A program made the translations under genes and the position numbers. From Escherichia phage UPEC06, in the sequence record MW250786: a stretch of DNA of 64,000 bases; one strand, given 5' to 3'. Shown one piece after another: positions 49,487 to 62,086 of this stretch. The notes under the pieces are model-generated. The model ran no database searches. It was not told the origin of the DNA and saw nothing but the letters and a program-made list of their open reading frames with translations. The first letter of the stretch is position 1, and every line of letters begins with the position of its first letter.

Positions 49487-49543
49487 TTGACAGAAAGAAA
49501 GAAGTAGATTAAATTATACCACGTAACGCCGCAATCGTGCGGC
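49487..49543 (+). promoter_or_regulatory. promoter-stem-loop cassette (TTGACA-17-TAAATT + leader hairpin)
   Basis: -35 TTGACA, 17-nt spacer, -10 TAAATT, then GCCGCA-atcg-TGCGGC hairpin; approx coords. Confidence 0.6.
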
Positions 49544-49570
49544 AATAAAAACTGATAGGAATTGAACAAA

Positions 49571-49783
49571 ATGGCTAAAATCATCATTAAAAAATCCCGT
49601 GTATCTTCTGTTGCTCGCGTCGAAATGGTAAACACTATGCCAGGTTACCGGACTCGCGAGGAAGCCCGAAGCGTTGCAAAACAGATTAAAGCCCGTGGCT
49701 TAACTGTAAGTGCACCGACCAAAACACAAGAAGGATGGAAGGTATCTATTAAATCCGGTACACTGTCGATCAATAAACACTAA
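49571..49783 (+). CDS. hypothetical small basic protein
   Basis: Track ORF starts at TTG 49562; in-frame ATG 49571 follows RBS. Confidence 0.5.
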   Translation: MAKIIIKKSRVSSVARVEMVNTMPGYRTREEARSVAKQIKARGLTVSAPTKTQEGWKVSIKSGTLSINKH

Positions 49784-49846
49784 TAGCCAAAACATTAACG
49801 GGGCAAATTTGCCCCTCACTAAATAACATTATCCAGGAGTATTAAC

Positions 49847-50005
49847 ATGACTAGCCAAAACACTAACATTGAAAAAATCAACATTACGAAAGAGCGTAAA
49901 GCATGGAATGAAACATTGAATCTCAAAGGTAAGAAGCTGAATAAAACTAAACGCGATCGCAGTACAAAGCGGGCCTTTTGTGAATTTACAGCGGATCAAG
50001 AATGA
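49847..50005 (+). CDS. hypothetical small basic protein (below track cut-off)
   Basis: 52-codon ORF read by eye after GGGGCAAATTTGCCCC hairpin and GGAG RBS; stop overlaps next start. Confidence 0.35.
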   Translation: MTSQNTNIEKINITKERKAWNETLNLKGKKLNKTKRDRSTKRAFCEFTADQE

Positions 50006-50301
50006 TGATTAAAGTTATTGCACTTACTGCTTTATTGTGTATGCCGTTTTTGGCGCACGGTACTAAGTTTTACGGTGCTAACTTGATAGATTGTAAAGCT
50101 CATATGCTGGACCATGAAACAGGTAATAAATTTGTTAAGCCCTTCCAGATCAATCCGGCGGCATTTGTTGACGGTGTTTTATATCAGGAAGGTAAAGCCA
50201 CTACGCTGATAATGCACTATGATCCAACAACAAAGAAAGGTAGTCTATCAATCCAGGTTGGAGAGGTGGAAGAGTTTTCCGGTGAAATAGTCTGTAATTA
50301 A
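50002..50301 (+). CDS. secreted small protein
   Basis: 99 aa with N-terminal signal peptide MMIKVIALTALLCMPFLAHG. Confidence 0.5.
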   Translation: MMIKVIALTALLCMPFLAHGTKFYGANLIDCKAHMLDHETGNKFVKPFQINPAAFVDGVLYQEGKATTLIMHYDPTTKKGSLSIQVGEVEEFSGEIVCN

Positions 50302-50307
50302 TATCTT

Positions 50308-50339
50308 GAGGCCCGTCATTGTACGGGCCTTTTTCTTTT
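50308..50339 (+). terminator. Rho-independent terminator
   Basis: GAGGCCCGT-cattgt-ACGGGCCT hairpin plus TTTTCTTTT. Confidence 0.7.
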
Positions 50340-50549
50340 ATGAAAATAATATTGAAAATGTTGTTGACAGTGACAACAAAAAGCGTAGAATGTATCACAT
50401 CAGGACGGGGCAACATAAGTAGACAACTTGTAAGTCGTAAGAAAACCAAGTGACCGTCAAAAATAGCTTGAAATGAAACATAAATAGTAATAAGATACTT
50501 ACATCGAAGGCGGGAATATCTCCCGATTCACAAATAAGAGAGAAATATT

Positions 50550-50822
50550 ATGGCATCATATAGCGCAACAATGATCGTAACGGGCACAACTGGTAAACCT
50601 ATGAGCGGTGGCGGATCATTCGCTAACATCAATATTGACGGGCGTTTATCCCTGGATGCCGCGATCGCCGTAGCGCAAGAAACATTTAAGAAAGAATGTA
50701 TTTTCAACAAGCAAGAGTATCTAGGCTTCGCTATTGAGAAAACTACTCGTTTTGTTGACTATAACAACCCTTTGATGGTTGATACTAACCTAAAAGCGAA
50801 AGATGTAGATTTCTTATTGTAA
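50550..50822 (+). CDS. hypothetical protein
   Basis: 90-aa ORF after promoter-like TTGACA and CGGGA-atatc-TCCCG leader hairpin. Confidence 0.5.
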   Translation: MASYSATMIVTGTTGKPMSGGGSFANINIDGRLSLDAAIAVAQETFKKECIFNKQEYLGFAIEKTTRFVDYNNPLMVDTNLKAKDVDFLL

Positions 50823-50867
50823 GTAATTGACAGCGGCAAGATTTACGAATTTTGTAGCAAATAGTAC

Positions 50868-50926
50868 TTGCAAAGTAATTAGATTAACGTATAATGTTTT
50901 ACATCGAGAGCGGCAATAGTGCCGCC
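50868..50926 (+). promoter_or_regulatory. promoter-stem-loop cassette (TTGCAA-16-TATAAT + GCGGCAATAGTGCCGC hairpin)
   Basis: Consensus -10 TATAAT with conserved leader hairpin ~15 nt downstream; approx coords. Confidence 0.6.
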
Positions 50927-50948
50927 TCACATCAAAGAGATTAAAATT

Positions 50949-51176
50949 ATGGCTATCCTTATTGTTCGTGTATCCGGTACAGTTGGTAACTCCCAAGTTG
51001 TGGCGGTTGTAACCAGCAAAAACATAAATGAGGCAAGCAATGTATTAAACAGATGGGCCGTTGCTAATTTTGGTGAGTGGTCAAGTGTTGAGTATATCGA
51101 ATCTTACCAGGTGCCAACTATTAGCCTAACCGATCTCAATGTTGATCGCTTGTTATGCCTGGATGAATTGATTTAA
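50949..51176 (+). CDS. hypothetical protein
   Basis: Start set to ATG 50949 (MAILIV) after RBS; track N-extension overlaps the hairpin. Confidence 0.5.
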   Translation: MAILIVRVSGTVGNSQVVAVVTSKNINEASNVLNRWAVANFGEWSSVEYIESYQVPTISLTDLNVDRLLCLDELI

Positions 51177-51260
51177 AAAGTAATTGCAAAGTAAGTCGAA
51201 TAAAGTATAATACATTACATCACGGGGAGAAATTATTATCCCCAGTAAGAGGAAACTAAA

Positions 51261-51404
51261 ATGAAAACTTGTCAGTGTGGTAAAAAGTCTATTGCTGGTC
51301 TGCGTCGCGGTGTTGCTTTATGCCAGTATCATTACAATACTCAAGTATGGGGTAAAATGTGGGCTGACCAGGTTGAAGCAGCAAAGAAAGCAAAAAATAG
51401 TTGA
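51261..51404 (+). CDS. hypothetical small Cys-containing protein (below track cut-off)
   Basis: 47-codon ORF read by eye after promoter/hairpin and GAGGA RBS. Confidence 0.35.
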   Translation: MKTCQCGKKSIAGLRRGVALCQYHYNTQVWGKMWADQVEAAKKAKNS

Positions 51405-51457
51405 CAGCAAGAAGAAAAAGAGTAAACTGTATTACGTAGGGCGGCAATAGCGCCGCC
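51401..51457 (+). promoter_or_regulatory. promoter-stem-loop cassette (TTGACA-16-TAAACT + GGGCGGCAATAGCGCCGCC hairpin)
   Basis: As other cassettes; approx coords. Confidence 0.55.
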
Positions 51458-51478
51458 ACATCAAAGAGAGAAATCAAA

Positions 51479-51697
51479 ATGGCTAATATCCGCACCGTGT
51501 TAAAAAATGCAAAAGAAGTTTTATTTTCTGACGATGAATATTTTAATCGCAATATCAAAGGTGTTCGGAACATCGAGGACGTAAAGGATTTATTTGGAAT
51601 CAAAGGTAACGTATATCGTAAAGGATTGCACGGTAATAATTTTGAATATAAATTAGCTGATAGTGATTATAATTTTACACTAACAATCATTAGTTGA
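51479..51697 (+). CDS. hypothetical protein
   Basis: 72-aa ORF after cassette. Confidence 0.5.
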   Translation: MANIRTVLKNAKEVLFSDDEYFNRNIKGVRNIEDVKDLFGIKGNVYRKGLHGNNFEYKLADSDYNFTLTIIS

Positions 51698-51790
51698 AAG
51701 TTTTATCACAGCACTATTGACTTAAGCGGATAGTGCTGGAATAATAACTTTTATCAAGTACTACAAATCAAACAAAGAGAGAATACAATC

Positions 51791-52030
51791 ATGGCTAATA
51801 ACAAAACTTTCAACGGTCACAAAAACAAAACTCATTGGAATGTTTCCTTGTGGATTAATAACGATATATCACTGTATCGATTGGCTAAAGATTTCATCGC
51901 CGATAATACTAATCGTTATGATGCGGCCCGCCACATGATGTTATTTTTAGAACAAATTGGACAAGATAAAACACCGGACGGCTTCAAATATAGTACCACT
52001 GCAATCCGTGCCGCGATGGTTGGAATGTAA
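51791..52030 (+). CDS. hypothetical protein
   Basis: 79-aa ORF with AAAGAGAGA RBS. Confidence 0.5.
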   Translation: MANNKTFNGHKNKTHWNVSLWINNDISLYRLAKDFIADNTNRYDAARHMMLFLEQIGQDKTPDGFKYSTTAIRAAMVGM

Positions 52031-52043
52031 AAAGAAAAAGTAG

Positions 52044-52100
52044 TTGACATAAACAAGCAAAACAAGTAAATTAATCACATCAAGCGGGGAATGGCCCCGC
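52044..52100 (+). promoter_or_regulatory. promoter-stem-loop cassette (GTAGTTGACA-17-TAAATT + GCGGGGAATGGCCCCGC hairpin)
   Basis: As other cassettes; approx coords. Confidence 0.6.
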
Positions 52101-52124
52101 TAAAAAAGAAGAGAGAGAAATCAA

Positions 52125-52460
52125 ATGGGCTTTTTATCTATCGTACAGGCTAACTTCGAAAATGATTTTATTGCTCAAGTTATCAACATTGACAAAGGTA
52201 TCCCAAATATCAATTTTGGTTTCAATAGTGGTGGTTATGAGAGATACCAGTATTTTGTAACTGACGATGGAAGTGTTTTAGGTATCAATACGGTGATGGC
52301 TAATATCCAAAACATTAATTTCAATGATCCCGATGAGCGCTCATTCTATATCGTCGGTGTCCAGGTGAACTACAATGATGACTCTTTAATCGATGATTAC
52401 ACTGGCGAGACGTTAGAAAGTGCTTACAGTGACGAATCAGAAGAAGAAGAAGAAGAATAA
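52125..52460 (+). CDS. hypothetical acidic protein
   Basis: 111 aa, C-terminal SDESEEEEEE. Confidence 0.5.
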   Translation: MGFLSIVQANFENDFIAQVINIDKGIPNINFGFNSGGYERYQYFVTDDGSVLGINTVMANIQNINFNDPDERSFYIVGVQVNYNDDSLIDDYTGETLESAYSDESEEEEEE

Positions 52461-52474
52461 GATTAAAAAAGTAG

Positions 52475-52532
52475 TTGACTGAAAGACTACAAAGAAGTAA
52501 GATAATTAACGAATAGGGGGAACATCTCCCCC
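52475..52532 (+). promoter_or_regulatory. promoter-stem-loop cassette (GTAGTTGACT-17-TAAGAT + GGGGGAACATCTCCCCC hairpin)
   Basis: As other cassettes; approx coords. Confidence 0.6.
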
Positions 52533-52558
52533 GTAAACAAAAGAAAGAGAGATTAAAA

Positions 52559-52741
52559 ATGACAGAACTGATTGCAACTACAAAGATCGAAGGCGTTAAC
52601 GATGTTACTTTGTCCTATGATCCTTCTACTCTGGTTTATGTTGTGAAATATGGCAGAATGATCGCAGAACTTGATTGCATTGATGAGGCTTTCGAAAAAT
52701 ATTTCGAACTTATCAATATTGCTTATGATGACTACCGTTAA
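52559..52741 (+). CDS. hypothetical protein
   Basis: 60-aa ORF after cassette. Confidence 0.45.
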   Translation: MTELIATTKIEGVNDVTLSYDPSTLVYVVKYGRMIAELDCIDEAFEKYFELINIAYDDYR

Positions 52742-52771
52742 CATACAACGCAAAAATAGAAAGGTGATAAA

Positions 52772-52981
52772 ATGATCAATGAAAAAACAATCAATGACGT
52801 TCGAGAGGAAGTTTTAGCCGTTGCCGTAGAATCTGGCGCACGTCAGGCATTTTGGAAAGCTACTGATCTTTACCCTGAACAAGCTGAAAATATTTTAAAC
52901 CAGGTCAGCGTTAAACTCGAAGAGATGGGCAAAGTCAAAACAAGTGAGCGCCTCGACCAAATCATTAAAGAAAGTTTTTGA
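52772..52981 (+). CDS. hypothetical protein
   Basis: 69-aa ORF with AAAGGTGA RBS. Confidence 0.45.
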   Translation: MINEKTINDVREEVLAVAVESGARQAFWKATDLYPEQAENILNQVSVKLEEMGKVKTSERLDQIIKESF

Positions 52982-53045
52982 TTGACTTTTAACATTGCCC
53001 CTATTAGTATTCAGGGGCAAGATTAAAAGAAACAAGGACACAAAG

Positions 53046-53357
53046 ATGAACGATATTGTTAGTATCATAGGTTTACTGGGTATAGGCTACGTCGCCACAT
53101 CAATTACGATGAGTTACTTCAATAAAAGGCGTGATAAAATGTTTTGTTACTTTGAATACCGTTACCGTGGTAAGGTTGGATCATCCCGTGACTATGGTCC
53201 GATGTTAGAGATTGATGCGGTTGGCGCTATGCAGTATCGCCAGTCACTAGGGGCTGAAATAATTTTTGAAGTGTACCGCAGTACAGAAGAAGAGATCCAC
53301 GACATTATTGACGAGCGTCAATATTACCACGAACAACAAACTAAACGCAGGGCTTAA
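53046..53357 (+). CDS. hypothetical membrane-anchored protein
   Basis: Start set to ATG 53046 (MNDIVS); N-terminal hydrophobic helix. Confidence 0.45.
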   Translation: MNDIVSIIGLLGIGYVATSITMSYFNKRRDKMFCYFEYRYRGKVGSSRDYGPMLEIDAVGAMQYRQSLGAEIIFEVYRSTEEEIHDIIDERQYYHEQQTKRRA

Positions 53358-53507
53358 CATATGACTAATACAAACCGACAAAAAATCATCAAAACTAAAA
53401 AACTTGATTTCAATACTTATCAAGAATGCAAGAAGAAAGTAAAAGAAAAGCGAGAGAACAAGCGGCACGAATGGATCACCAATACAATCGATCTTTAATA
53501 ACAATCT

Positions 53508-53531
53508 AAGCCCATTATGTGGGCTTTTTCT
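53508..53531 (+). terminator. Rho-independent terminator
   Basis: AAGCCCA-ttatg-TGGGCTT hairpin plus TTTTCTT. Confidence 0.6.
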
Positions 53532-53545
53532 TATGGAGAACAGAC

Positions 53546-53773
53546 ATGATTAATATTCTTTCACTGACAGAAGTGATCCGTTTCCTCAAAAACAACGCCC
53601 TGGGGACTTCTATAACGTATCTAATCCCGCAAGGTAAAGATTATGCCAGCGTTACACGTTCAATCACCGCTACGGCTTCCAGGGAAGAAATAAAGGTCAG
53701 CGTAAGCCAATTGTTGATTGTTGATCCATCATCTTGCGAGACTATCCAGGCGGTGAAGATAATTAGAAAATAA
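53546..53773 (+). CDS. hypothetical protein
   Basis: Start set to ATG 53546 (MINILS) after GGAGAA RBS. Confidence 0.45.
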   Translation: MINILSLTEVIRFLKNNALGTSITYLIPQGKDYASVTRSITATASREEIKVSVSQLLIVDPSSCETIQAVKIIRK

Positions 53774-53858
53774 TTTAAAAAACTTCTTGCATCCATTATT
53801 GAGGGGGTGTATATTAGTTTCATCAAGACGAGATAAAGATAACCCAAAGGTGATTATT

Positions 53859-54152
53859 ATGTTATACGAAGTTTTTGCTGGATTTTGTTTTTATGGTGCT
53901 GCCGCCGTTCGCCAGTGTGATGATTATGTGGTTGAGTCATTTGATGATCCTTTGGCGTGTGAGATTGTTACTACGGCATACGAGCAAGATCGCCGTTGGA
54001 TTAATCCGGCCTGTATCGCATCGCCTGAGGTTGAACCTATGCCGGAAGGTGAGGAATTAACAGAGGAAGACTTGCAAGAAGTAAAAGAAGTTATGAGCTA
54101 CATGATTGATAATCTGGACGCTGAAAACTTACAACGTGCATTGCAAAAATAA
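53859..54152 (+). CDS. hypothetical acidic protein
   Basis: Start set to ATG 53859 (MLYEVF) after AAAGGTGA RBS. Confidence 0.45.
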   Translation: MLYEVFAGFCFYGAAAVRQCDDYVVESFDDPLACEIVTTAYEQDRRWINPACIASPEVEPMPEGEELTEEDLQEVKEVMSYMIDNLDAENLQRALQK

Positions 54153-54165
54153 TTTGAAAAAGTAG

Positions 54166-54223
54166 TTGACTGAAAGCAACAAAACAAGTAAATTATTCAC
54201 ATCAGGCGGGGAATGGCCCCGCC
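54166..54223 (+). promoter_or_regulatory. promoter-stem-loop cassette (GTAGTTGACT-17-TAAATT + GGCGGGGAATGGCCCCGCC hairpin)
   Basis: Near-identical to the cassette at 52044; approx coords. Confidence 0.6.
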
Positions 54224-54238
54224 AAACAAAAAGAGATT

Positions 54239-54619
54239 ATGAAAATGGCTAAAAATACTAACGTTTGTGATTACGCTGACCTCGTTACTCTGAATGCAGA
54301 TTCTAAAATCAACTTGTCAGATGTGGAAGCGGTACACGTCCTGGCACGCCGTTGGTTCCAACAATCCTACGGTAATACATATTTTTCTTTAAGTGTAGAC
54401 GTGGAGATCGCTGGTAAATTGGTTGAAGTGGTTAGCGTGCCGTTCAAATATGGATATGGTGACCATTTCGATACCGTGGCACTGGAAGAATTTAGCAAGG
54501 TTATCAACCTGGAAGGAAAGGAGTTTTCAGAGTATAGTTACCTTTCCCGTTTTTGCCGTGACAATAACATCCCTGTTTATTCGAACGCTGTTGATGTTAA
54601 ACGCAAAAAAGATATGTGA
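54239..54619 (+). CDS. hypothetical protein
   Basis: 126-aa ORF after cassette (ATG 54239 or 54245). Confidence 0.5.
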   Translation: MKMAKNTNVCDYADLVTLNADSKINLSDVEAVHVLARRWFQQSYGNTYFSLSVDVEIAGKLVEVVSVPFKYGYGDHFDTVALEEFSKVINLEGKEFSEYSYLSRFCRDNNIPVYSNAVDVKRKKDM

Positions 54620-54706
54620 TTATTATTGACAGCACACAAAAAACAAGTAAATTGTATCACATAGAAAGCGGGAACACTTCCCGCTTATATCCTAAAGGTA
54701 AGAGAA

Positions 54707-54958
54707 ATGTTCGAACAAATCAAAACTACAACGGCTAACGTAACGGGTACAGTATCTCACTTCATTAGTGATGAATCGCGGGGCGTTCCTTATTGTGCGG
54801 TGCATGTAAACAAAAATGGCGACTACTGGTTAACGGCGTATGGATCTTATTCTTTCGGACGTAGTGCACACCAAAAGATCCTGGATAAAGTGCAGCCAAC
54901 GGGTAAAAATATTACCGCTGAAATGTTTAATAAATCACTTGCAAAGTTAAAAGCGTAA
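54707..54958 (+). CDS. hypothetical protein
   Basis: 83-aa ORF after TTGACA/TAAATT promoter and GCGGGAACACTTCCCGC hairpin. Confidence 0.5.
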   Translation: MFEQIKTTTANVTGTVSHFISDESRGVPYCAVHVNKNGDYWLTAYGSYSFGRSAHQKILDKVQPTGKNITAEMFNKSLAKLKA

Positions 54959-55259
54959 AGTATAATATATCACATCAGGCGGGGAGTGTTTCCCCGTCAC
55001 AAAATGAAAGGTTAACAAAATGAAAGCAAGCATGATGGTAGCGACTGTAAACATTATCATTGGTAACGGAACTGGACACCACGAAATCATAAAAAACAAG
55101 GCTTACTCTATTAGCTCCCTCAAAAACGACATGCGTTTATCTTTGGGCCAAATCCGCGCTTACTTTCGTGAAGGCTATCAGAAAAAAGTAGCAAATTAAT
55201 AGTTGACGCAAAGGTCATTTTAATTTAATCTATAACAAATCGACAAATGAGGCATAATC

Positions 55260-55562
55260 ATGTTTACCAAAGCAAATGAGTATTTCTTTTTAGATTCACT
55301 TGACGAAAGTATCTTTGTAGCTATGGGCAAAAAGTCAATGGTCTTTAAACGCAAAAAAGATAATGGTGACTTTGAAGATAGCGAAGCCGTGCTAACAGTC
55401 AAGGAAGGTAAAGAACCTGCTACGTCTGTTTTAATCTATACCTTGACCAACGGCGGTGAAGTTATCGCATCAGGTAGTAGCCATCCGATCCCAAAATCGG
55501 AAGTGAACACTGTAATTATTGGTTTTGTTGCAGCTTGTTTCTACGAGGAAAAAAGCAAATGA
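55260..55562 (+). CDS. hypothetical protein
   Basis: 100-aa ORF after TTGACG promoter-like site. Confidence 0.5.
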   Translation: MFTKANEYFFLDSLDESIFVAMGKKSMVFKRKKDNGDFEDSEAVLTVKEGKEPATSVLIYTLTNGGEVIASGSSHPIPKSEVNTVIIGFVAACFYEEKSK

Positions 55563-55723
55563 ATCCGCAAAATTTATCTTATGTAAATTGGCCCAATAAG
55601 GCTGAGAAGAAAGAAAACTTGAAACGTCTGGTTAACTTTTATCGTGAAGCTGATCATAGTAAAGTAACAGCGGTTAAAATGGCAAAGCGCCACCTTAACA
55701 AGCCAGGTACTAAACTAATTTAA
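55559..55723 (+). CDS. hypothetical small basic protein
   Basis: Start set to ATG 55559 (MNPQN), ATGA overlap with upstream stop. Confidence 0.4.
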   Translation: MNPQNLSYVNWPNKAEKKENLKRLVNFYREADHSKVTAVKMAKRHLNKPGTKLI

Positions 55724-55794
55724 AAACTTGTTGACGTTGGCTTGTGCCGTACCTATAATGGACGGCATAGGCAAACGAAATAGGATTTATAGAA

Positions 55795-56001
55795 ATGAAA
55801 AAGAAAATTGTATATAACTTTGTTAGCTTTATTGCGACTACCCTCCTGGCTATTGCAGGGCTATCTTTAATCGTCGCCGTAGGATCTTTGTTTCCTGGGG
55901 CAATAGGTATTAGCATAGCTTTCGCTGCATTGTCTGTTTTTACAGGCTATGCAGGGATTAAAGTTATTTACTGGTCAGAAGATTATAAATATTCAAACTA
56001 A
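55795..56001 (+). CDS. small two-TM membrane protein
   Basis: 68 aa, two hydrophobic helices; after TTGACG-N-TATAAT promoter. Confidence 0.5.
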   Translation: MKKKIVYNFVSFIATTLLAIAGLSLIVAVGSLFPGAIGISIAFAALSVFTGYAGIKVIYWSEDYKYSN

Positions 56002-56391
56002 ATTGAGGTGTAAGGTGTATAAATTATTGGCCTGGGAAACAGAATCATCGTCACCGATCAGCCGGACCTTTTTTGATTTGTGCACGGCTTACAAGCTGGC
56101 AAAGGGAGGATATCATAAGGCCCAGATCATTGATGAATTTAATGTTATCCTTTATGAATTTTAATTAATTCATGCACTTAAAAGAAAGTTATAAAAAGTT
56201 TTAAAAAGTAGTTGCAACAAACATTGGGTAGTAGTATAGTACTTTCAACGGGGCGAGATAGCCCAAAACGAAAAAACTTGAAAGGTGATTATCATGATGG
56301 CAATTTTCTTAGTTTCTCTTCTGGTCGCTGTATGTTCTGCCACTGCTGCCGCTGTACTTTACGATACACGTTACAATGAGGAATAATAAAA

Positions 56392-56610
56392 ATGAATATT
56401 GTCAACATTACAGGAAAAACTGAACTCCTTAAAAATCTTGCACCAGGTGAATCAACTGTATGGATCTGTAACAATGGAGAAGTAGAAAAACAGATGAGAT
56501 TGTTTACCGCCATTTGTTGTCGGCTGAATATGAAGGTCACACAAATCCGATCGATGATTGTTAGTGTGGGAAACATTCCGACTGAATGCATAATTCTTAC
56601 AAAGATTTAA
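56392..56610 (+). CDS. hypothetical protein
   Basis: 72-aa ORF. Confidence 0.45.
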   Translation: MNIVNITGKTELLKNLAPGESTVWICNNGEVEKQMRLFTAICCRLNMKVTQIRSMIVSVGNIPTECIILTKI

Positions 56611-56686
56611 AAATAGCTTTACAACAACGATAAAATCAGTACAATACAAATCAGGCAATAAAGCCGACTAAAGAAAGGTAAAGACC

Positions 56687-56926
56687 ATGCAAACTATTAT
56701 CACTAAATTTCTTCCTCCTACTAATACCCGTGGCGCTCGCATCAAAGCAAAATGTTGGTTGACAGATATCACTATCGCCTATCCGGTAGCCGAGATCAAC
56801 GAAGCCCATAAACTGGCGGCAGAAGTGTTAATTACAAAATTGAAGATGACAACAGATATTGATTGGAATATCGTTGCAAGCGGTGAAACACCGGACGGCA
56901 GCGGCTACGCTTTCATTATCAAATAA
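56687..56926 (+). CDS. hypothetical protein
   Basis: 79-aa ORF with RBS. Confidence 0.45.
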   Translation: MQTIITKFLPPTNTRGARIKAKCWLTDITIAYPVAEINEAHKLAAEVLITKLKMTTDIDWNIVASGETPDGSGYAFIIK

Positions 56927-56935
56927 TCATAAAGC

Positions 56936-56954
56936 GGCGGGAATAGTTCCCGCC
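56936..56954 (+). other. intercistronic leader stem-loop (GCGGGAA-tag-TTCCCGC) without promoter
   Basis: 8-bp GC-rich stem between stop of upstream ORF and RBS of next ORF; same family as promoter-linked hairpins. Confidence 0.5.
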
Positions 56955-56980
56955 TTATTAAAGAGAAAAGAGAAGATATC

Positions 56981-57259
56981 ATGACTATTACTAAATTATC
57001 CACCGAAGAGATCACCAACATTCTGACTACTAATCTTGGAGATTGGAAGCGTGAAGCTGATTTGCAAGCAACCTGTAAACTGAATACAGAGCTAACATCA
57101 GACGATATTGAAACGATCGTCCATGCTGATTTCTATGATGCTTTGCATGATGATTCTATCGTCCTTGAAACGTTGTTAGATAATGCCTGGATCAATCCCG
57201 ATTTGGCGGCGTATGGTCATAGCGCCTTTGTTACTATCCACAATATTTATAACCGTTAA
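56981..57259 (+). CDS. hypothetical protein, paralogue of 58733-59011 product
   Basis: MTITKLSTEEITNILTTNLGDWKREADLQ aligns with MTIAKLSAEEIEQVLTTNLEQWKREADIQ. Confidence 0.55.
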   Translation: MTITKLSTEEITNILTTNLGDWKREADLQATCKLNTELTSDDIETIVHADFYDALHDDSIVLETLLDNAWINPDLAAYGHSAFVTIHNIYNR

Positions 57260-57269
57260 GAGGTGATAA

Positions 57270-57533
57270 GTGGCCCTTTCAACAACAAATAAAGTAATTG
57301 GTGTTATCCCTGGGAGATCAATCAAGGTTGGCGATCTCATACGCTTACAAGTTGCTTCCTTTCCTGGTCCGGCTTATGATTTTTGTCATACCGTTGCGAT
57401 TCAAGAGAATCCGCATGATGTTAACCTCATGGTGATTTGGTACAAGCTGGCAAATGGTCAACTTTGCGAGGATATCATAGGGAAAGATGAGGCGTTCAAT
57501 ATTATGTACCAAAACGGCCCGCTAACGGCCTAA
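57270..57533 (+). CDS. hypothetical protein, paralogue of 59255-59482 product
   Basis: GTG start with AAGAGGTGA RBS; shared PxYDFC...VIWY...DIxGxDE pattern. Confidence 0.5.
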   Translation: MALSTTNKVIGVIPGRSIKVGDLIRLQVASFPGPAYDFCHTVAIQENPHDVNLMVIWYKLANGQLCEDIIGKDEAFNIMYQNGPLTA

Positions 57534-57630
57534 AACGGCGAAAGTATGCAATCACCTTACTTGATACTATTCTACGCCCTGGCTTATCCTGGGGCTTTTG
57601 ATTGGGGTAGAAAATAATTCGAAAAAGTAG

Positions 57631-57687
57631 TTGACGGCAATTAACACTATGGTAAAGTGTACCCCGTAGGGCGGCAATAGCGCCGCT
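57631..57687 (+). promoter_or_regulatory. promoter-stem-loop cassette (GTAGTTGACG + GGGCGGCAATAGCGCCGCT hairpin)
   Basis: As other cassettes; approx coords. Confidence 0.55.
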
Positions 57688-58045
57688 CACTGAAAAAGGG
57701 TAAAATCATGTTAGAAAAAATTTTCACGGTTGTAATCTTAGGTTTAACATTCTTTGTAGGAGTAACTGCAACGATGGCTAATATGATTTTATCTTTCAAT
57801 GGTATTGGTTAAGAGGAAACAACAAATGAAAACTTTCAACGCAACAGCCTCAACAATTGGCTATATTATTACAGTACAGGCCGTGGATCTGGTAGCGGCG
57901 GCAAACAAGATTAAAAAAATGATTCCGACAGATAGCAAATTTTCCGTATGGGAAGTCAAATAATCCTTGACAGTAATTTATTATCTGGTAAAGTCTATTA
58001 TGTAGGGCGGCAATAGTGCCGCTGATAACCGAAGAGAAACAACAA

Positions 58046-58219
58046 ATGATCCCAACTATCTTTTACATATCTCGCAAAGGCATCAACATCCATTGGATGG
58101 AAGATTTAGAGCAAGCTATAGAGTATGCCCGTGGTCGTGTCGCTATCGGCGGCGTAGATATCACCGTTACCGATGAGAACGGGATCGAGTATTATAACAG
58201 CGAAGAAGAAGACTACTAA
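58046..58219 (+). CDS. hypothetical small protein
   Basis: Start set to ATG 58046 (MIPTIF) after promoter, GGCGGCAATAGTGCCGC hairpin and RBS. Confidence 0.45.
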   Translation: MIPTIFYISRKGINIHWMEDLEQAIEYARGRVAIGGVDITVTDENGIEYYNSEEEDY

Positions 58220-58263
58220 TCAACAGGGCGGCAAGAATGCCGCCATATAAAGGAATAAATGAA

Positions 58264-58650
58264 ATGAAACAAGAAATCATCAATACAATTATCGACGGTT
58301 ACAAAGAAGCCTTTATTTTCGCTGAATCAGCAACGGATCAGTACGGGGAGCATATCGATAACCTTGATCCTTATGACTTCTCCCAGGACGCAAACGACCG
58401 GATCGCCCAGGATGTAACAGCCTTCATTAATGCCAATATCGCCGTTATATCTGAGGCAATGTCTGACGGTGCAACAGCGATCCAGATAGGGAATGATTTA
58501 CATCTTACACGCAACGGTCACGGCGTAGGATTTTGGGATCGTCCTGAGATATACACCACGGATACGGGTAACCGTTTGAGTAATGCCGCTAAATTAATGC
58601 CTAACGTGTCAGCTTACATTGGGAAAGATAATCTGATTTATATTGAATAA
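58264..58650 (+). CDS. hypothetical protein
   Basis: Start set to ATG 58264 (MKQEII) after RBS; track start 58237 lies in loop of hairpin GGGCGGCAAGAATGCCGCC. Confidence 0.45.
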   Translation: MKQEIINTIIDGYKEAFIFAESATDQYGEHIDNLDPYDFSQDANDRIAQDVTAFINANIAVISEAMSDGATAIQIGNDLHLTRNGHGVGFWDRPEIYTTDTGNRLSNAAKLMPNVSAYIGKDNLIYIE

Positions 58651-58656
58651 AAAGTA

Positions 58657-58712
58657 TTGACAAGCTGAATCAACCTGATAAGATGTATCACATAGGGGCG
58701 ACAAGCGCCCCG
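58657..58712 (+). promoter_or_regulatory. promoter-stem-loop cassette (TTGACA-16-TAAGAT + GGGGCGACAAGCGCCCC hairpin)
   Basis: As other cassettes; approx coords. Confidence 0.55.
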
Positions 58713-58732
58713 CCTAACAGAGAGATAGAATC

Positions 58733-59011
58733 ATGACCATCGCCAAATTATCCGCTGAAGAAATCGAACAAGTGTTAACTACTAACCTGGAACAATGGAA
58801 ACGTGAGGCAGATATACAATCAGCACAATGGCTTAACGAGAAGTTAACACCGGATGATCTGAGTAAGATTATAGATCCTCAATTCTATGAAGATATTCAC
58901 GACACGGCGTTATCCGTTGAGGATGTACTCGATAAGCATTACATTGCTACTGATTTGCAGGTTTACGGGCGTAAAAACTTTATTACTATTCACGACATTT
59001 ACAATAACTAA
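58733..59011 (+). CDS. hypothetical protein, paralogue of 56981-57259 product
   Basis: See 56981-57259. Confidence 0.55.
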   Translation: MTIAKLSAEEIEQVLTTNLEQWKREADIQSAQWLNEKLTPDDLSKIIDPQFYEDIHDTALSVEDVLDKHYIATDLQVYGRKNFITIHDIYNN

Positions 59012-59046
59012 GGGCGGCAACGCCCTACAACTAAAAGGGTAATATT

Positions 59047-59241
59047 ATGACGTTAGCAACATGTACCGGATCAAAAATTGCTTGCTTTGAGTTTATGGAA
59101 GACTACCACACGACCGCAATCACTAACCAATATATTACAGTGATCACGCGTGACGGTATCGCCTGGCATGTTCCGGTTTATGATGGGGATACCTATGAAG
59201 TCACCGATAGCGACGGCAATACAGCTATCTTTGTTGTCTAA
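59047..59241 (+). CDS. hypothetical protein
   Basis: 64-aa ORF after GGGCGGCAACGCCC hairpin and RBS. Confidence 0.45.
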   Translation: MTLATCTGSKIACFEFMEDYHTTAITNQYITVITRDGIAWHVPVYDGDTYEVTDSDGNTAIFVV

Positions 59242-59254
59242 GGGGGGAAACACT

Positions 59255-59482
59255 ATGCACAATAACATCATTACCGATCGTGCCGCTACTATGCGCCCTG
59301 GCGATCGGGCACGTTTACAGATCGGCGCTTATCCGTTCCCTACTTATGACTTTTGCAAAGTAACCGCTATCGAAAACAATCCGTTCGAACCTGATACCGT
59401 GATCGTATGGTATGAAGGAAGAGGTAATAAATTTGAAGACATTTTGGGGCGAGATGAGTTATTGAATATTCTACGTTATTAA
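59255..59482 (+). CDS. hypothetical protein, paralogue of 57270-57533 product
   Basis: Start set to ATG 59255 (MHNNII) after AAGGGGGG RBS. Confidence 0.5.
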   Translation: MHNNIITDRAATMRPGDRARLQIGAYPFPTYDFCKVTAIENNPFEPDTVIVWYEGRGNKFEDILGRDELLNILRY

Positions 59483-59600
59483 TCGCCGTCTAACAGCCTT
59501 AAGCCTGTTAAGCTATGCAACCCCCTACCTTGTCCAATCGTCGCGCCCTGGTTTATGCTGGGGCGTTCTACGTTACAGCAAAATAATTTTAAAAATACGC

Positions 59601-59659
59601 TTGACGCTCGCCAGGTGAGCGGGTATATTTTATCACGTAGGGCGGCAATAGTGCCGCTC
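59601..59659 (+). promoter_or_regulatory. promoter-stem-loop cassette (TTGACG-17-TATATT + GGGCGGCAATAGTGCCGCT hairpin)
   Basis: As other cassettes; approx coords. Confidence 0.6.
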
Positions 59660-59679
59660 ACTGAAAAAGGTAAATCAGC

Positions 59680-59871
59680 ATGAAAACTATCACCTATCTG
59701 GAATCGAATAATAAATTTTTTGCCCCTGTTGATGAAATCATCGAAGCCCTGGCAAACGGTGAGGGTGTAAATGGCTTGCCTCATGCTCAATTAGTCGGAC
59801 TTGTCAAGGCAAACAAAGAATTAGCCTACTATGTAGAAAACTTTGAAACAGCAGTTATATTTACAAAATAA
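59680..59871 (+). CDS. hypothetical protein
   Basis: 63-aa ORF after cassette. Confidence 0.45.
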   Translation: MKTITYLESNNKFFAPVDEIIEALANGEGVNGLPHAQLVGLVKANKELAYYVENFETAVIFTK

Positions 59872-59951
59872 AGGTTGTATTCATTCCGCAACTGGTTTAT
59901 ATTATTTGTGTAGGGCGGCAATAGTGCCGCTCACTGACTGGAGCTATCATT

Positions 59952-60353
59952 ATGGCCTTTACAATCACCTCTTACACTGACGTTGCCAACATTGCTAAAA
60001 CTTTCGGCCCTGAAGCCCTTAAGTATGCGGTATCCAATGGTAAACTAACGAAAGAGCAATGTTACCTGATTGGAAGCTGTAAACGTTGGGCGGCATCTCG
60101 TAACATCGAGATTGAAAACGTAAATGATGGTAACATCGAGTATAGCGTTGATGCAGTATTCAAGGCCGTGTATTTGGGCGGTATCTATAATACCAACCTT
60201 AATGATGTGCGTATCGTTCGCACTGGTTTTGGGGCTTATGATGTTCCAGTTCGCGAAGCTATGGAAAAAGGTTATATTAATCCAGCTATTTTAAGTATGA
60301 TCATGACTGAGGCCAAAGAACGTAACGAAGTACGGGCCATCCTGGGCCTGTAA
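59952..60353 (+). CDS. hypothetical protein
   Basis: 133-aa ORF after GTAGGGCGGCAATAGTGCCGCTCACTGA element. Confidence 0.5.
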   Translation: MAFTITSYTDVANIAKTFGPEALKYAVSNGKLTKEQCYLIGSCKRWAASRNIEIENVNDGNIEYSVDAVFKAVYLGGIYNTNLNDVRIVRTGFGAYDVPVREAMEKGYINPAILSMIMTEAKERNEVRAILGL

Positions 60354-60451
60354 TGAAATATTAACAGAAAACTATTGACACGGATCGTCAATATGCTAAT
60401 ATTTATCACGTAGGGCGGCAATGGTGCAGCCCACTGGAAAAGGTAAAAATC

Positions 60452-60697
60452 ATGTACCAGACAACTAAAATTGGCAATATCTATCACGATCCTAAAAACT
60501 CACGCGGTACAGCCTGGATCAAGATGCCCAACAACGTTTGGTACTATGCATTAAAAGGCAATACCTTGATGGGCAATCGTTGGAAGTGGATTAAAGAAAA
60601 TAACAACATTATTAACGATGAAAAAATCCAAGAAATGGTAGCAACGGGTAAGGTTGTAATGCAAGAAAACACCGACCGCCTTACTCGTCAATTTTAA
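60452..60697 (+). CDS. hypothetical protein
   Basis: 81-aa ORF after TTGACA promoter and degenerate hairpin. Confidence 0.45.
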   Translation: MYQTTKIGNIYHDPKNSRGTAWIKMPNNVWYYALKGNTLMGNRWKWIKENNNIINDEKIQEMVATGKVVMQENTDRLTRQF

Positions 60698-60706
60698 TAT
60701 CAATAA

Positions 60707-60722
60707 GGGGCGGCAACGCCCC
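60707..60722 (+). other. intercistronic stem-loop with GNRA-type loop (GGGGCG-GCAA-CGCCCC)
   Basis: 6-bp GC stem, GCAA tetraloop, between ORFs and upstream of RBS. Confidence 0.5.
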
Positions 60723-60745
60723 ACCTCGACCAAAGAGAAACAATA

Positions 60746-62031: not shown

Positions 62032-62086
62032 TAGAATAATCAAACGGGCCGAGAGGCCCACTAACTGACCTAACAGGATTAATATC

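What the first reader, a model, noticed from the sequence alone, without database searches (positions are those of the whole stretch)
49800..60725. Conserved GC-rich leader hairpin family, present with and without promoters
The hairpins form a sequence family in an otherwise AT-rich region. The commonest variant is (C)GTAGGGCGGCAATAG(C/T)GCCGC(C/T)CAC (near 50910, 51439, 57669, 58005, 59640, 59915; degenerate at 60405). Related forms include GCGGGGAATGGCCCCGC (52084, 54205), GGGGGAACATCTCCCCC, GCGGGAACACTTCCCGC and GGGCGGCAACGCCC. Copies also sit between cistrons with no promoter (near 49800, 56936, 58226, 59012, 60707), always 15-35 nt before the RBS. Some loops are GNRA-type (GCAA). Conservation of loop and flanking bases, not just the stem, suggests a sequence-specific site such as a processing or protein-binding element; in one case (58226) an ATG lies in the loop.
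Basis: seen in the sequence. Interest (0 to 1): 0.6.

Follow-up and report, generated by a model that had tools for sequence, protein, structure and literature searches.

The report
Phage early-gene promoter–hairpin cassettes
In this rV5-like phage, a block of about 40 tiny genes of unknown function uses a repeated "strong promoter – GC-rich RNA hairpin – ribosome site" cassette, and gene gains and losses between related phages have their crossover points inside the hairpins; this kind of element was described for T4-like phages (PeSLs), so here it is a new example, not a new mechanism.

Summary
Window 48.9-62.1 kb is an array of about 40 tiny ORFan genes in an rV5-like myovirus (Vequintavirinae). 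23 strong GC-rich hairpins lie in 49.4-60.9 kb, against 0.9 expected. The family has 17 promoter-associated copies. They start 9-14 nt after the -10 box of a near-consensus sigma-70 promoter, about +1 to +7 of the predicted mRNA, and end 19-27 nt before the start codon. Six more copies are promoterless and intercistronic. None has a U-tract.

In four close relatives the stems are under selection for pairing: divergence is 0.046 against 0.11 neutral, and 15 of 21 changed pairs still pair. Loops drift almost neutrally. Several cassette indels between relatives have their crossover inside the hairpins.

The same module occurs in 145 phage records, where it is annotated as "terminator" or "PHIRE promoter".

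Best reading: this is a PeSL-type mobile early-expression cassette, so far described only in T4-like phages. Recombination at the hairpins is shown by the junctions. The hairpin's role as an RNA leader structure (5'-end protection or RBS insulation) is inferred. A sequence-specific protein-binding or processing site is not supported, but not excluded.

The parts
49487..49573 (+). Module 1: promoter TTGACA-17-TAAATT, leader hairpin 49528-49543 (GCCGCA atcg TGCGGC), RBS, ATG 49571
50468..50552 (+). Module 2: promoter TTGAAA-17-TAAGAT, weak hairpin 50511-50525 (CGGGA atatc TCCCG), ATG 50550
   Evidence: the LTH01 orthologue has CGGGAA tag TTCCCG
50868..50951 (+). Module 3: promoter TTGCAA-16-TATAAT, hairpin 50910-50925 (extended 50906-50928 with a bulged A), ATG 50949
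   Evidence: orthologues swap the stem to GCGGG/CCCGC or GGGGAG/CTCCCC
51184..51263 (+). Module 4: promoter TTGCAA-16-TATAAT, degenerate hairpin 51224-51243 (5 bp, 10-nt loop; 8 bp in relatives), ATG 51261
51401..51481 (+). Module 5: promoter TTGACA-16-TAAACT, hairpin 51440-51457 (GGCGGC aatagc GCCGCC), ATG 51479
52044..52127 (+). Module 6: promoter TTGACA-17-TAAATT, hairpin 52083-52101 (AGCGGGG aatgg CCCCGCT), ATG 52125
   Evidence: the basal pair runs A-U, G.U, G-C across orthologues
52475..52561 (+). Module 7: promoter TTGACT-17-TAAGAT, hairpin 52516-52532 (GGGGGA acatc TCCCCC), ATG 52559
   Evidence: relatives carry a paired A...T insertion that adds one base pair
54166..54247 (+). Module 8: promoter TTGACT-17-TAAATT, hairpin 54205-54223 (GGCGGGG aatgg CCCCGCC), ATG 54245
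   Evidence: 88% identical to module 6 over 81 nt
54626..54709 (+). Module 9: promoter TTGACA-16-TAAATT, hairpin 54666-54686 (AAGCGGGAA cac TTCCCGCTT), ATG 54707
   Evidence: compensatory A-T to G-C change in LTH01
54939..55022 (+). Module 10: promoter TTGCAA-16-TATAAT, hairpin 54978-54998 (GGCGGGGAG tgt TTCCCCGTC, one G.U pair), ATG 55020
56212..56296 (+). Module 11: promoter TTGCAA-17-TATAGT, weak hairpin 56251-56264 (GGGC gagata GCCC), ATG 56294
57631..57710 (+). Module 12: promoter TTGACG-16-TAAAGT, hairpin 57669-57688 (GGGCGGC aatagc GCCGCTC), ATG 57708
   Evidence: left crossover site of the A73 indel
57967..58048 (+). Module 13: promoter TTGACA-16-TAAAGT, hairpin 58006-58023 (GGCGGCA atag TGCCGCT), ATG 58046
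58657..58735 (+). Module 14: promoter TTGACA-16-TAAGAT, hairpin 58695-58711 (GGGGCG acaag CGCCCC), ATG 58733
   Evidence: in A5-4 it is fused through the hairpin to gene 59047
59601..59682 (+). Module 15: promoter TTGACG-17-TATATT with a second hairpin 59605-59621 inside the -35/-10 spacer; leader hairpin 59640-59659 (GGGCGGCA atag TGCCGCTC); ATG 59680
   Evidence: left crossover site of the A73 one-gene indel
59875..59954 (+). Module 16: promoter TTGTAT-17-TATATT, hairpin 59913-59932 (GGGCGGCA atag TGCCGCTC), ATG 59952
   Evidence: right crossover site
60375..60454 (+). Module 17: promoter TTGACA-16-TAATAT, degenerate hairpin 60413-60432 (GGGCGGCAATGGTGCAGCCC), ATG 60452
   Evidence: left boundary of a cassette replacement
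49800..49815 (+). Promoterless intercistronic hairpin GGGGCA aatt TGCCCC, 31 nt before ATG 49847
56936..56954 (+). Promoterless intercistronic hairpin GGCGGGAA tag TTCCCGCC, 26 nt before ATG 56981
58227..58244 (+). Promoterless intercistronic hairpin GGCGGCA agaa TGCCGCC, 19 nt before ATG 58264; the ATG at 58237 in the loop is not conserved
59011..59026 (+). Promoterless hairpin AGGGCG gcaa CGCCCT (GNRA loop). It overlaps stop codon 59009-59011 and lies 20 nt before ATG 59047
   Evidence: crossover partner of hairpin 58695 in A5-4
60707..60722 (+). Promoterless hairpin GGGGCG gcaa CGCCCC (GNRA loop), 23 nt before ATG 60746
   Evidence: right boundary of the cassette replacement
62046..62059 (+). 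Intercistronic hairpin GGGCC gaga GGCCC (GNRA loop; GAAA in relatives), 27 nt before ATG 62087.
48778..48793 (-). Leader hairpin (GCGCC aaccag GGCGC on the - strand) of the divergent leftward gene. It follows TTGCTA-17-TATAGT and lies 23 nt before the ATG at 48754
   Evidence: conserved in A73, LTH01 and ASO2A
52995..53020 (+). Hairpin TTGCCCCT...AGGGGCAA spanning the -10 box of promoter 52982-53010 (PeSL-like placement)
55745..55767 (+). Hairpin TGCCGT..cc TATAAT gg..ACGGCA spanning the -10 box of promoter 55731-55759 (PeSL-like placement)
50308..50331 (+). Canonical intrinsic terminator (9-bp stem, then TTTTCTTTT). Context only: it shows what real terminators look like in this array
57576..57595 (+). 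Canonical terminator GCCCTGG cttatc CTGGGGC TTTTG upstream of module 12; a paralogous copy lies at 59543-59566

Best explanation
The hairpins are the stem-loop component of a repeated early-gene expression cassette of about 80-100 bp. Each cassette has an A-rich UP region, a near-consensus sigma-70 promoter, a conserved start region (CACATCA or CACGTAG), a G-rich/C-rich hairpin, an unstructured A/G-rich spacer with a Shine-Dalgarno, and the ATG. These cassettes flank ORFan genes in one hyperplastic block of an rV5-like phage. This is the PeSL type of element described for T4-like phages.

Two things happen at the hairpin.

(1) DNA level, shown by comparative sequence. The hairpin is the longest stretch shared between cassettes, and homologous recombination crosses over inside it. 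This inserts, deletes or replaces units of [spacer-RBS-ORF(s)-hairpin]. It also explains the promoterless copies and the near-identity of hairpins that sit next to unrelated promoter spacers.

(2) RNA level, inferred. The hairpin is transcribed on the + strand and begins about +1 to +7 of the predicted mRNA. Its pairing is kept by selection. It most likely shields or shortens the single-stranded 5' end that RppH and RNase E need, and it keeps the downstream RBS in a fixed, unpaired context whether the gene is read from its own promoter or by read-through. Promoterless copies would act as 3'-exonuclease barriers or insulators between cistrons. The hairpin is not an intrinsic terminator and not a phage-specific promoter.
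For: Family and enrichment: 23 strong hairpins against 0.91 +/- 0.84 in shuffles. The core motif has 8 + strand sites against 0 expected.

Fixed geometry: the gap from the -10 box to the hairpin is 9-14 nt, and from the hairpin to the start codon 19-31 nt. No copy has a U-tract, while real terminators in the same array do. In predicted leaders the hairpin is the only stable structure, the RBS is mostly unpaired (0.49-0.97), and the 5' tail is 0-6 nt.

Selection on pairing: orthologue divergence is 0.008 for the -35 box, 0.111 for the spacer, 0.046 for stems, 0.081 for loops and 0.113 for codon position 3. Stems against neutral sites give p=1.3e-8. Of 21 changed pairs, 15 still pair; 5 of these are double changes. 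All 10 one-sided changes that keep pairing are G-C/A-U to G.U on the + strand. One orthologue has a paired A...T insertion.

Strand asymmetry: 22 of 23 copies have a G-rich 5' arm (G 99, C 31).

Recombination:
- A73 lacks window 59665-59909 and 57689-58226. Its single hybrid module matches the left copy up to the hairpin and the right copy from the hairpin on.
- A5-4 joins promoter 58657, through a GGGGCG...CGCCCC hairpin, to gene 59047.
- Window 60452-60697 is replaced in A73 by an unrelated ORF between two hairpins.
- 6 of 10 (A73) and 6 of 12 (A5-4) homology-block endpoints lie within 15 nt of a hairpin. Only 8% of the sequence does.

Restriction to the ORFan block: 14 of the 16 modules in the whole 142-kb A73 genome lie in one 11-kb block, and a 15th sits divergently beside it. 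All ten proteins tested are of unknown function.

Spread: the module is found in 145 phage records from Vequintavirinae, Phapecoctavirus and Justusliebigvirus, and in no E. coli genome.

PeSL definition: a sigma-70 promoter with an AT-rich upstream region, a G(n)-loop-C(n) stem-loop, and SD/ATG. PeSLs sit in hyperplastic regions, and exchanges occur in or near them. One subclass has the stem-loop downstream of the -10 box (PMC2839356; PMC4122927).

5'-end logic: a 5'-terminal stem-loop blocks RppH, and both RppH and RNase E need unpaired 5' nucleotides (PMC8833179).
Against: - No transcription start site or RNA end was measured. The +1 positions come from the 7-nt rule.
- With that rule most leaders keep 3-6 unpaired 5' nt. 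That is enough for RppH and RNase E, which need at least 2 and prefer 3 or more. Protection could therefore be weak.
- Simple stem-loops inside an RNA are easily bypassed by scanning RNase E (PMC9943677). Promoterless copies would not protect downstream RNA in that way.
- In RB49 a PeSL stem-loop placed in a transcript lowered lacZ expression as much as a strong terminator (PMC2839356). An attenuator role therefore cannot be dismissed from sequence alone.
- Crossovers in the hairpins may only reflect that they are the longest identical stretches. That would be a consequence, not a selected function.
- In Phapecoctavirus (ASO2A against phAPEC8) the junctions I examined lie at promoters or gene ends, not in hairpins.
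- The G.U against A.C counts are few and not independent.
Confidence: 0.55

Rival explanations
1. Attenuator or terminator. The hairpins stop or reduce transcription, as proposed for PeSL stem-loops and as annotated in phage ASO2A. They would limit read-through from upstream promoters or temper very strong promoters.
For: ASO2A annotates the homologous hairpins as 'rho-independent terminator predicted by WebGeSTer'. A PeSL stem-loop reduced lacZ expression like the rrnB T1 terminator (PMC2839356). The array has a promoter before almost every gene, so damping read-through would make sense.
Against: None of the family hairpins has a U-tract: 0-4 T in the next 8 nt, and mostly an A-rich tail. Four hairpins in the same array that do look like terminators sit where operon ends are expected, upstream of promoters; three of them carry a clear T-tract and the fourth (59543) only a weak one. 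The hairpin lies downstream of its own promoter, so an efficient terminator would silence the gene it precedes.
Confidence: 0.15
2. Sequence-specific recognition site. A phage or host protein or nuclease binds the hairpin apex and flanks to process, stabilise, antiterminate or translationally control all early mRNAs together.
For: Seven copies share GTAGGGCGGCAATRGYGCCGC although their promoter spacers are unrelated. 'AA' after the 5' arm is at least 90% conserved across 32 diverse copies. The first loop base never changed among 11 orthologous loop variants. The motif is conserved across phage subfamilies.
Against: Loops diverge almost neutrally between orthologues (0.081 against 0.112, p=0.13) and differ widely across the family. 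Stems also differ in sequence. Recombination inside the hairpins explains the shared sequence. The stems are too short for RNase III. There is no boxA-like partner, and one hairpin per gene is unlike nut or put sites. There is no Rfam match.
Confidence: 0.12
3. No RNA function. The hairpins are selfish or relict repeats that persist only because they promote their own spread by recombination, or because they hitch-hike with the promoters.
For: Crossovers lie in the hairpins. Degenerate copies exist at 51224, 56251 and 60413, and several promoters in the array lack a hairpin altogether. The start motif CGTAGGGC occurs without a hairpin at 61421 and 61718.
Against: Pairing is maintained by compensatory and G.U changes, and stems evolve 2.4 times more slowly than neutral sites. 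Orientation is uniform (22 of 23 have a G-rich 5' arm) and the spacing to the start codon is fixed. Recombination needs identity, not complementarity.
Confidence: 0.1
4. Phage-specific promoter. The 20-mer (G/A)TAGGGCGGCAATGGTGCCG would itself be a promoter, as annotated in phAPEC8 by PHIRE.
For: The phAPEC8 GenBank record labels these 20-mers 'putative promoter determined with PHIRE'. Promoterless copies precede genes.
Against: PHIRE only reports over-represented 20-mers. In most cases the motif lies 9-14 nt downstream of a near-consensus sigma-70 promoter. The family is defined by complementarity, with many different sequences.
Confidence: 0.02

Closest known systems
PeSLs (promoter-early stem-loops) of T4-like phages RB49/phi1, PST/T4 and nt-1/KVP40 (Arbiol et al. 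2010, PMC2839356; Comeau et al. 2014, PMC4122927)
   Same: A composite repeat of roughly 80-100 bp (about 100 bp in RB49). It has an AT-rich upstream region, a sigma-70 consensus promoter, a G(n)-loop-C(n) stem-loop with G.T pairs, and SD plus ATG at the 3' end. It is concentrated in a hyperplastic block of ORFans. Indels and replacements between close relatives are bounded by the elements, and degraded or half copies exist.
   Different: The phage lineage differs (Vequintavirinae / Stephanstirmvirinae, not T4-like). The stem-loop here is almost always downstream of the -10 box and of the predicted start site, so it is part of the gene's own mRNA. In PeSLs it is mostly between or over the promoter boxes (RB49) or upstream of the promoter (PST, nt-1), and it is read as a terminator for upstream transcription. 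Terminator activity and mini-circles were not tested here.
5'-terminal stem-loop mRNA stabilisers: ompA and papA leaders (references listed in PMC3997798), and the T7 gene 10 / class III promoter leader (own knowledge)
   Same: A stable GC-rich hairpin within a few nt of the 5' end of an mRNA made from a strong promoter. An unstructured leader and a strong RBS follow it.
   Different: The predicted 5' tails here are 0-6 nt, so many may be too long for full protection. The stabilising effect has not been measured. These hairpins are also a repeated, recombining family, and copies occur away from 5' ends.
Rho-independent (intrinsic) terminators
   Same: A GC-rich stem of 5-9 bp with a short loop in an intergenic position. 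Some terminator predictors call these hairpins (ASO2A annotation).
   Different: There is no U-tract, and the hairpins sit downstream of the promoter of the gene they precede.
Stable tetraloop hairpins in T4 intercistronic regions, and REP-type intercistronic stabilisers (own knowledge)
   Same: The promoterless copies are short, very stable hairpins between cistrons. Three of the six have GNRA loops (GCAA, GCAA, GAGA).
   Different: They belong to the same recombining family as the promoter-associated hairpins. No link to RNA 3' ends has been shown.
Lambda nut boxB and HK022 put antitermination RNAs (own knowledge)
   Same: An RNA hairpin shortly after an early promoter.
   Different: Here there is one hairpin per gene instead of one or two per operon. 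There is no boxA and no conserved GNRA-like pentaloop. A put RNA has two stems of about 70 nt. There is no Rfam hit.

Membership tests
PeSL (promoter-early stem-loop cassette) | [quoted passage not shown] | tested here: met
   17 modules with TTGACA-like -35 boxes, 16-18 nt spacers and TAnnnT -10 boxes. Most are preceded by AAAAAGTAG.
PeSL (promoter-early stem-loop cassette) | Adjacent stable stem-loop, typically a G tract followed by a C tract, with G.T pairs tolerated | tested here: met
   22 of 23 hairpins have a G-rich 5' arm (G 99, C 31). G.U pairs are seen on the + strand.
PeSL (promoter-early stem-loop cassette) | [quoted passage not shown] | tested here: inconclusive
   Here 17 copies start 9-14 nt after the -10 box, which is beyond the predicted +1. 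Three others overlap a promoter box or spacer (52995, 55745, 59605). The placement is closest to the rarest PeSL subclass, but transcribed.
PeSL (promoter-early stem-loop cassette) | Shine-Dalgarno and start codon at the 3' end of the element | tested here: met
   The hairpin ends 19-31 nt before an ATG that is preceded by a purine-rich SD.
PeSL (promoter-early stem-loop cassette) | Preferential location in a hyperplastic region of ORFans | tested here: met
   Density is 1.87 per kb in 48.9-61.2 kb, against 0.24-0.40 per kb in most of the rest of the window. 14 of 16 modules in the whole A73 genome lie in one 11-kb block. The PHROG hits are all of unknown function.
PeSL (promoter-early stem-loop cassette) | Indels and replacements between close relatives have junctions in or next to the elements | tested here: met
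   Crossovers lie inside the hairpins in A73 and A5-4. One cassette is replaced by an unrelated ORF. Endpoint enrichment: 6/10 and 6/12 against 8% expected.
PeSL (promoter-early stem-loop cassette) | Stem-loop acts as a transcription terminator or attenuator; the elements form excised mini-circles | not testable with these tools
   This needs reporter assays and inverse PCR. The sequence argues against efficient intrinsic termination, because there is no U-tract.
Intrinsic (rho-independent) terminator | GC-rich hairpin immediately followed by a U-rich tract | tested here: not met
   Family hairpins have 0-4 T in the 8 nt after the stem. The control terminators at 50308, 53508 and 57576 have 6-7.
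5'-terminal stem-loop mRNA stabiliser | Hairpin at the extreme 5' end, leaving fewer than 2-3 unpaired nucleotides | tested here: inconclusive
   Predicted 5' tails are 0-6 nt under the 7-nt rule. RppH and RNase E need at least 2 and prefer 3 or more (PMC8833179). True start sites are unknown.
5'-terminal stem-loop mRNA stabiliser | Removing or opening the hairpin shortens mRNA half-life | not testable with these tools
   This needs rifampicin-chase experiments.
nut/boxB or put antitermination RNA | Conserved loop or boxA sequence; one or two sites per operon; matches the Rfam models | tested here: not met
   Loops are variable. There is one hairpin per gene. There is no Rfam hit at gathering score or at E<=5.
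RNase III processing site | About two helical turns (roughly 20 bp) of double-stranded RNA | tested here: not met
   Stems are 4-9 bp. The length requirement comes from general knowledge.

The most novel reading that the evidence does not exclude
The hairpins could be more than passive homology. They might be a dedicated, structure-recognised element: either an integron-attC-like recombination site at which a phage enzyme excises and inserts [hairpin-RBS-ORF] cassettes, or a common RNA handle through which one phage or host factor co-regulates the whole early ORFan regulon. Three observations keep this open: the conserved first loop base, the near-invariant 'AA' after the G-rich arm, and the uniform orientation.
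Probability: 0.1. Interest if true: 0.75.

Novelty: new member of a known kind. Interest (0 to 1): 0.4.

Why it matters
- It extends the PeSL idea from T4-like phages to a second large group of enterobacterial myoviruses (rV5-, phAPEC8- and phi92-like; 145 records). The idea is that standardised promoter/stem-loop cassettes both express and shuffle ORFan genes. Here the crossovers can be read directly inside the hairpins.
- It explains how the accessory-gene block of these therapeutically used phages changes gene by gene.
- It flags inconsistent database annotation of the same motif, as 'terminator' in one record and 'PHIRE promoter' in another.
- It offers a natural set of compact, strong, insulated expression cassettes, with a simple testable question: what does a hairpin placed just after +1 do to an mRNA?

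Tried and rejected
- Rfam, at gathering score over the whole window and at E<=5 over 48.7-62.2 kb: nothing relevant.
- tRNA/tmRNA scan: none.
- MAFFT plus RNAalifold on 32 copies: the gap-free alignment put hairpins with different loop lengths out of register, so only 3 consensus pairs were found. I relied instead on orthologue-by-orthologue pair counts and a loop-anchored alignment. No covariance model was built.
- The loop-anchored pair table is circular for positions 1-5, because those pairs were the selection criterion. It is used only to show the variety of pair types.
- Host origin (REP-like): no match in 5,426 E. coli genomes.
- Literature: no paper in the library describes these hairpins in rV5-like phages. 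The rV5 genome paper lists only promoters and terminators, and the ASO2A paper gives only counts. Searches for start-site data on Vequintavirus found nothing. One search was lost to syntax and one to an over-strict term. The PVP-SE1 paper is not held.
- Phapecoctavirus pair ASO2A/phAPEC8: the junctions lie at promoters and gene ends, not in hairpins. The crossover-in-hairpin result is therefore shown only for the window's own clade.
- A possible ncRNA after promoter 61386: the fold is no better than shuffles, z = -0.33.
- Minus-strand terminator reading of the promoterless copies: the scan flags them only because stop codons and AT-rich DNA lie upstream. No minus-strand genes converge there.

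Full report
**What the window is.** The region is about 94% identical, in mosaic fashion, to Escherichia phages LTH01, A73, A5-4, A7_1 and W70 (Vequintavirinae, rV5-like myoviruses of 137-145 kb). Window 48.9-62.1 kb is a + strand array of about 40 very small genes. All ten that I tested fall in PHROG families of unknown function or in none.

- The core motif GGGCGGCAATAGYGCCGCYC with up to 3 mismatches has eight + strand sites, against none in 100 shuffles.
- Hairpins with a stem of at least 6 bp, at least 5 GC pairs and a 3-7 nt loop number 23 in 49400-60900. In 200 dinucleotide-preserving shuffles the mean was 0.91 +/- 0.84 and the maximum 4.
- Density is 1.87 per kb in the array, against 0.24-0.40 per kb in most of the rest of the window.
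- Of the 23, 18 belong to the family. The rest are two U-tract terminators, one weak terminator, one hairpin inside a promoter spacer and one at a gene end.
- Adding weaker copies gives 17 promoter-associated and 6 promoterless hairpins on the + strand. One more serves the divergent leftward gene at 48778-48793 on the minus strand.
The spacing is better stated as 19-31 nt from the hairpin end to the start codon.
- The region is not unusually AT-rich: 39.5% GC against 40.3%.

**Anatomy.** The unit is a composite of 80-100 bp.
- It opens with an A-rich upstream stretch, often AAAAAGTAG.
- The promoter follows: TTGACA-like -35 box, 16-18 nt spacer, TAnnnT -10 box.
- A conserved start region comes next, CACATCA or CACGTAG.
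- The hairpin starts 9-14 nt after the -10 hexamer.
- An A/G-rich unstructured spacer with the Shine-Dalgarno follows, then the ATG.

Taking +1 as the 7th nt after the -10 box, the leaders are about 40-50 nt long. The hairpin (-8 to -18 kcal/mol for the whole leader) is the only stable structure. The RBS is mostly unpaired, and 0-6 nt (typically 3-4) remain single-stranded at the 5' end.

No family member has a U-tract: 0-4 T in the next 8 nt. Hairpins in the same array that carry T-tracts (50308, 53508, 57576; weakly 59543) sit upstream of promoters, where operon ends are expected. A few promoters carry a hairpin over the -10 box (52995-53020, 55745-55767) or inside the spacer (59605-59621).

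**RNA-level evidence.** I compared orthologous modules in A73, LTH01, A5-4 and W70.

| Partition | Divergence per site |
|---|---|
| -35 box | 0.008 |
| -35/-10 spacer | 0.111 |
| -10 box | 0.044 |
| -10 to hairpin | 0.052 |
| Stem | 0.046 |
| Loop | 0.081 |
| Hairpin to ATG | 0.081 |
| Codon position 3 | 0.113 |

- Stems are slower than neutral sites (Fisher p=1.3e-8). Loops are not (p=0.13).
- Of 21 changed stem pairs, 15 still pair. Five are double changes. All ten one-sided changes that keep pairing are G-C or A-U to G.U on the + strand, which would be A.C mismatches on the other strand.
- Examples: A-U, G.U and G-C at the base of 52083; A-T to G-C in 54666; a paired A...T insertion that lengthens the 52516 stem; three different stems at the 50910 position.
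- 22 of 23 hairpins have the G-rich arm 5'.

Together this points to a structure selected in the + strand transcript. The counts are small and the events are not all independent.

**Loops.** Loops differ across the family and change between orthologues at nearly every position. Two hints remain: the first loop base never changed among 11 variants, and 'AA' after the G-rich arm is at least 90% conserved among 32 diverse copies.

**DNA-level evidence: recombination.** Homology blocks between the window and its relatives end at the hairpins.
- A73 lacks window 59665-59909, which is one gene plus a promoter. Its single module is identical to the window's left module up to the hairpin and to the right module from the hairpin on. 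The crossover lies within the shared GTAGGGCGGCAATAGTGCCGCTCACTGA.
- A73 also lacks 57689-58226 (three genes), with the junction inside GGCGGCAA...GCCGCC. This joins a promoter-associated hairpin to a promoterless one.
- A5-4 fuses promoter 58657, through a GGGGCG...CGCCCC hairpin, directly to the RBS of gene 59047. This removes [RBS-gene 58733-hairpin].
- Window gene 60452-60697 is replaced in A73 by an unrelated ORF between hairpins 60413 and 60707.
- Only 8.0% of 48701-63000 lies within 15 nt of a family hairpin. Yet 6 of 10 (A73, P=4e-5), 6 of 12 (A5-4, P=2e-4) and 2 of 6 (LTH01) block endpoints do. The endpoints come in pairs, so these P values are optimistic.

This pattern accounts for three things. 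The promoterless copies arise when a cassette inserted at a hairpin duplicates it. Hairpins can be near-identical next to unrelated promoter spacers. And [hairpin-RBS-ORF] behaves as a mobile unit: the paralogous two-gene blocks at 56981-57595 and 58733-59566 differ by such an insertion at 59011-59241.

**Distribution.**
- In the complete 142-kb A73 genome, 14 of 16 promoter+hairpin+start modules lie in the 11-kb ORFan block. One sits divergently beside it and one lies elsewhere.
- A 97-nt module finds 145 phage records in Vequintavirinae, Phapecoctavirus and Justusliebigvirus (phi92).
- The exact core motif occurs in eight IMG/VR contigs; five of these are 120-153 kb, like these phages, and three are shorter (36-61 kb).
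- There is no match in 5,426 E. coli genomes.
- In ASO2A the homologous hairpins are annotated as WebGeSTer 'rho-independent terminators' placed directly after annotated promoters.
- In phAPEC8 the 20-mer (G/A)TAGGGCGGCAATGGTGCCG is annotated as a 'putative promoter determined with PHIRE'.
- Neither label fits the anatomy.
- In the ASO2A/phAPEC8 pair, the junctions I looked at lie at promoters or gene ends, not in hairpins.

**Comparison with what is known.** The closest described system is the PeSL of T4-like phages. A PeSL combines an AT-rich region, a sigma-70 consensus promoter, a G(n)-loop-C(n) stem-loop and SD/ATG. PeSLs are concentrated in hyperplastic ORFan regions, and exchanges between close relatives occur in or near them (PMC2839356; PMC4122927). 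All sequence-level criteria are met here.

The difference is placement. PeSL stem-loops mostly lie between or over the promoter boxes, or upstream of the promoter, and are interpreted as terminators for upstream transcription. Here the hairpin follows the predicted start site and so belongs to the gene's own mRNA. PeSLs have been reported only for T4-like phages, and I found no description for rV5-like phages.

**How it most likely works.**
- Shown: the hairpin is a conserved, strand-specific, pairing-constrained element at a fixed place in a repeated cassette, and it is a recombination junction.
- Inferred: as RNA it reduces access to the 5' end. A 5'-terminal stem-loop blocks RppH, and both RppH and RNase E need at least 2 and prefer 3 or more unpaired nt (PMC8833179). 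It also fixes the structural context of the RBS.
- Caveats: the predicted tails of 3-6 nt may be long enough for those enzymes. Internal stem-loops are easily bypassed by scanning RNase E (PMC9943677). A PeSL stem-loop behaved like a terminator in a reporter.
- Confidence: 0.55 for the combined cassette explanation, 0.15 for attenuation, 0.12 for specific recognition, 0.10 for no RNA function, and 0.02 for a phage-specific promoter.

**Verdict.** This is a real and well-organised feature, best filed as a new member of the PeSL kind in another phage lineage. Its mechanism at the RNA level is not settled. Interest is moderate.

Noticed in passing
window 47639-48140: A non-coding stretch of about 1.2 kb upstream of the divergent early promoters. 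It carries four copies of GAGAACTTGAG(G/A)GGTTTTTC (spacing 52, 32 and 64 nt) and two 57-nt repeats. It looks iteron-like, so it may be an origin, packaging region or terminus. rV5 has an annotated 'non-coding' box.
   Followed up: partly
window 61386-61760: Two strong promoters (61386-61414 and 61682-61711) are each followed by the start motif CGTAGGGC but not by a hairpin. The first drives about 260 nt with no ORF of 30 aa or more. Its fold is no better than shuffles (z = -0.33). The gap is also free of annotated genes in A73 and A5-4.
   Followed up: partly
window 56981-57595 and 58733-59566: An old tandem paralogy. Two-gene blocks (52% and about 41% amino-acid identity) are each followed by a related terminator (GCCCTGG..CTGGGGC). 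The second copy carries an extra [hairpin 59011 - gene 59047-59241] insertion.
   Followed up: yes
window 51710-51737: An 8-bp inverted repeat (AGCACTAT ... ATAGTGCT) encloses the -35 box TTGACT of the hairpin-less promoter for gene 51791. It could be a protein-binding palindrome or another PeSL-like placement.
   Followed up: no
window 62960-64000: No ORF of 120 aa or more is listed after the last array gene (a shorter-ORF scan was not run). The sequence is C-rich and T-rich with low complexity (for example ccctctccctccccc at the window end), and further TTGAC-type promoter-like sites lie near 63888 and 63940. It may be the genome end or terminal-repeat region, as in phi92, where the array abuts the right terminal repeat.
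   Followed up: no
window 50392-50470; L001 1790-1850: Promoter 50364-50391 is followed by CACATCAGGACGGGGCAAC, which is a 5' arm without its partner. A73 keeps ACGGGGA...CTCCCCGT with a long loop. It looks like a decaying hairpin at a recombination junction.
   Followed up: partly
(database records): Several records named 'Campylobacter phage' (A150, B15, A142; 140-150 kb, host C. jejuni) match this E. coli phage module at 82-85% identity. The names or hosts may be wrong.
   Followed up: no
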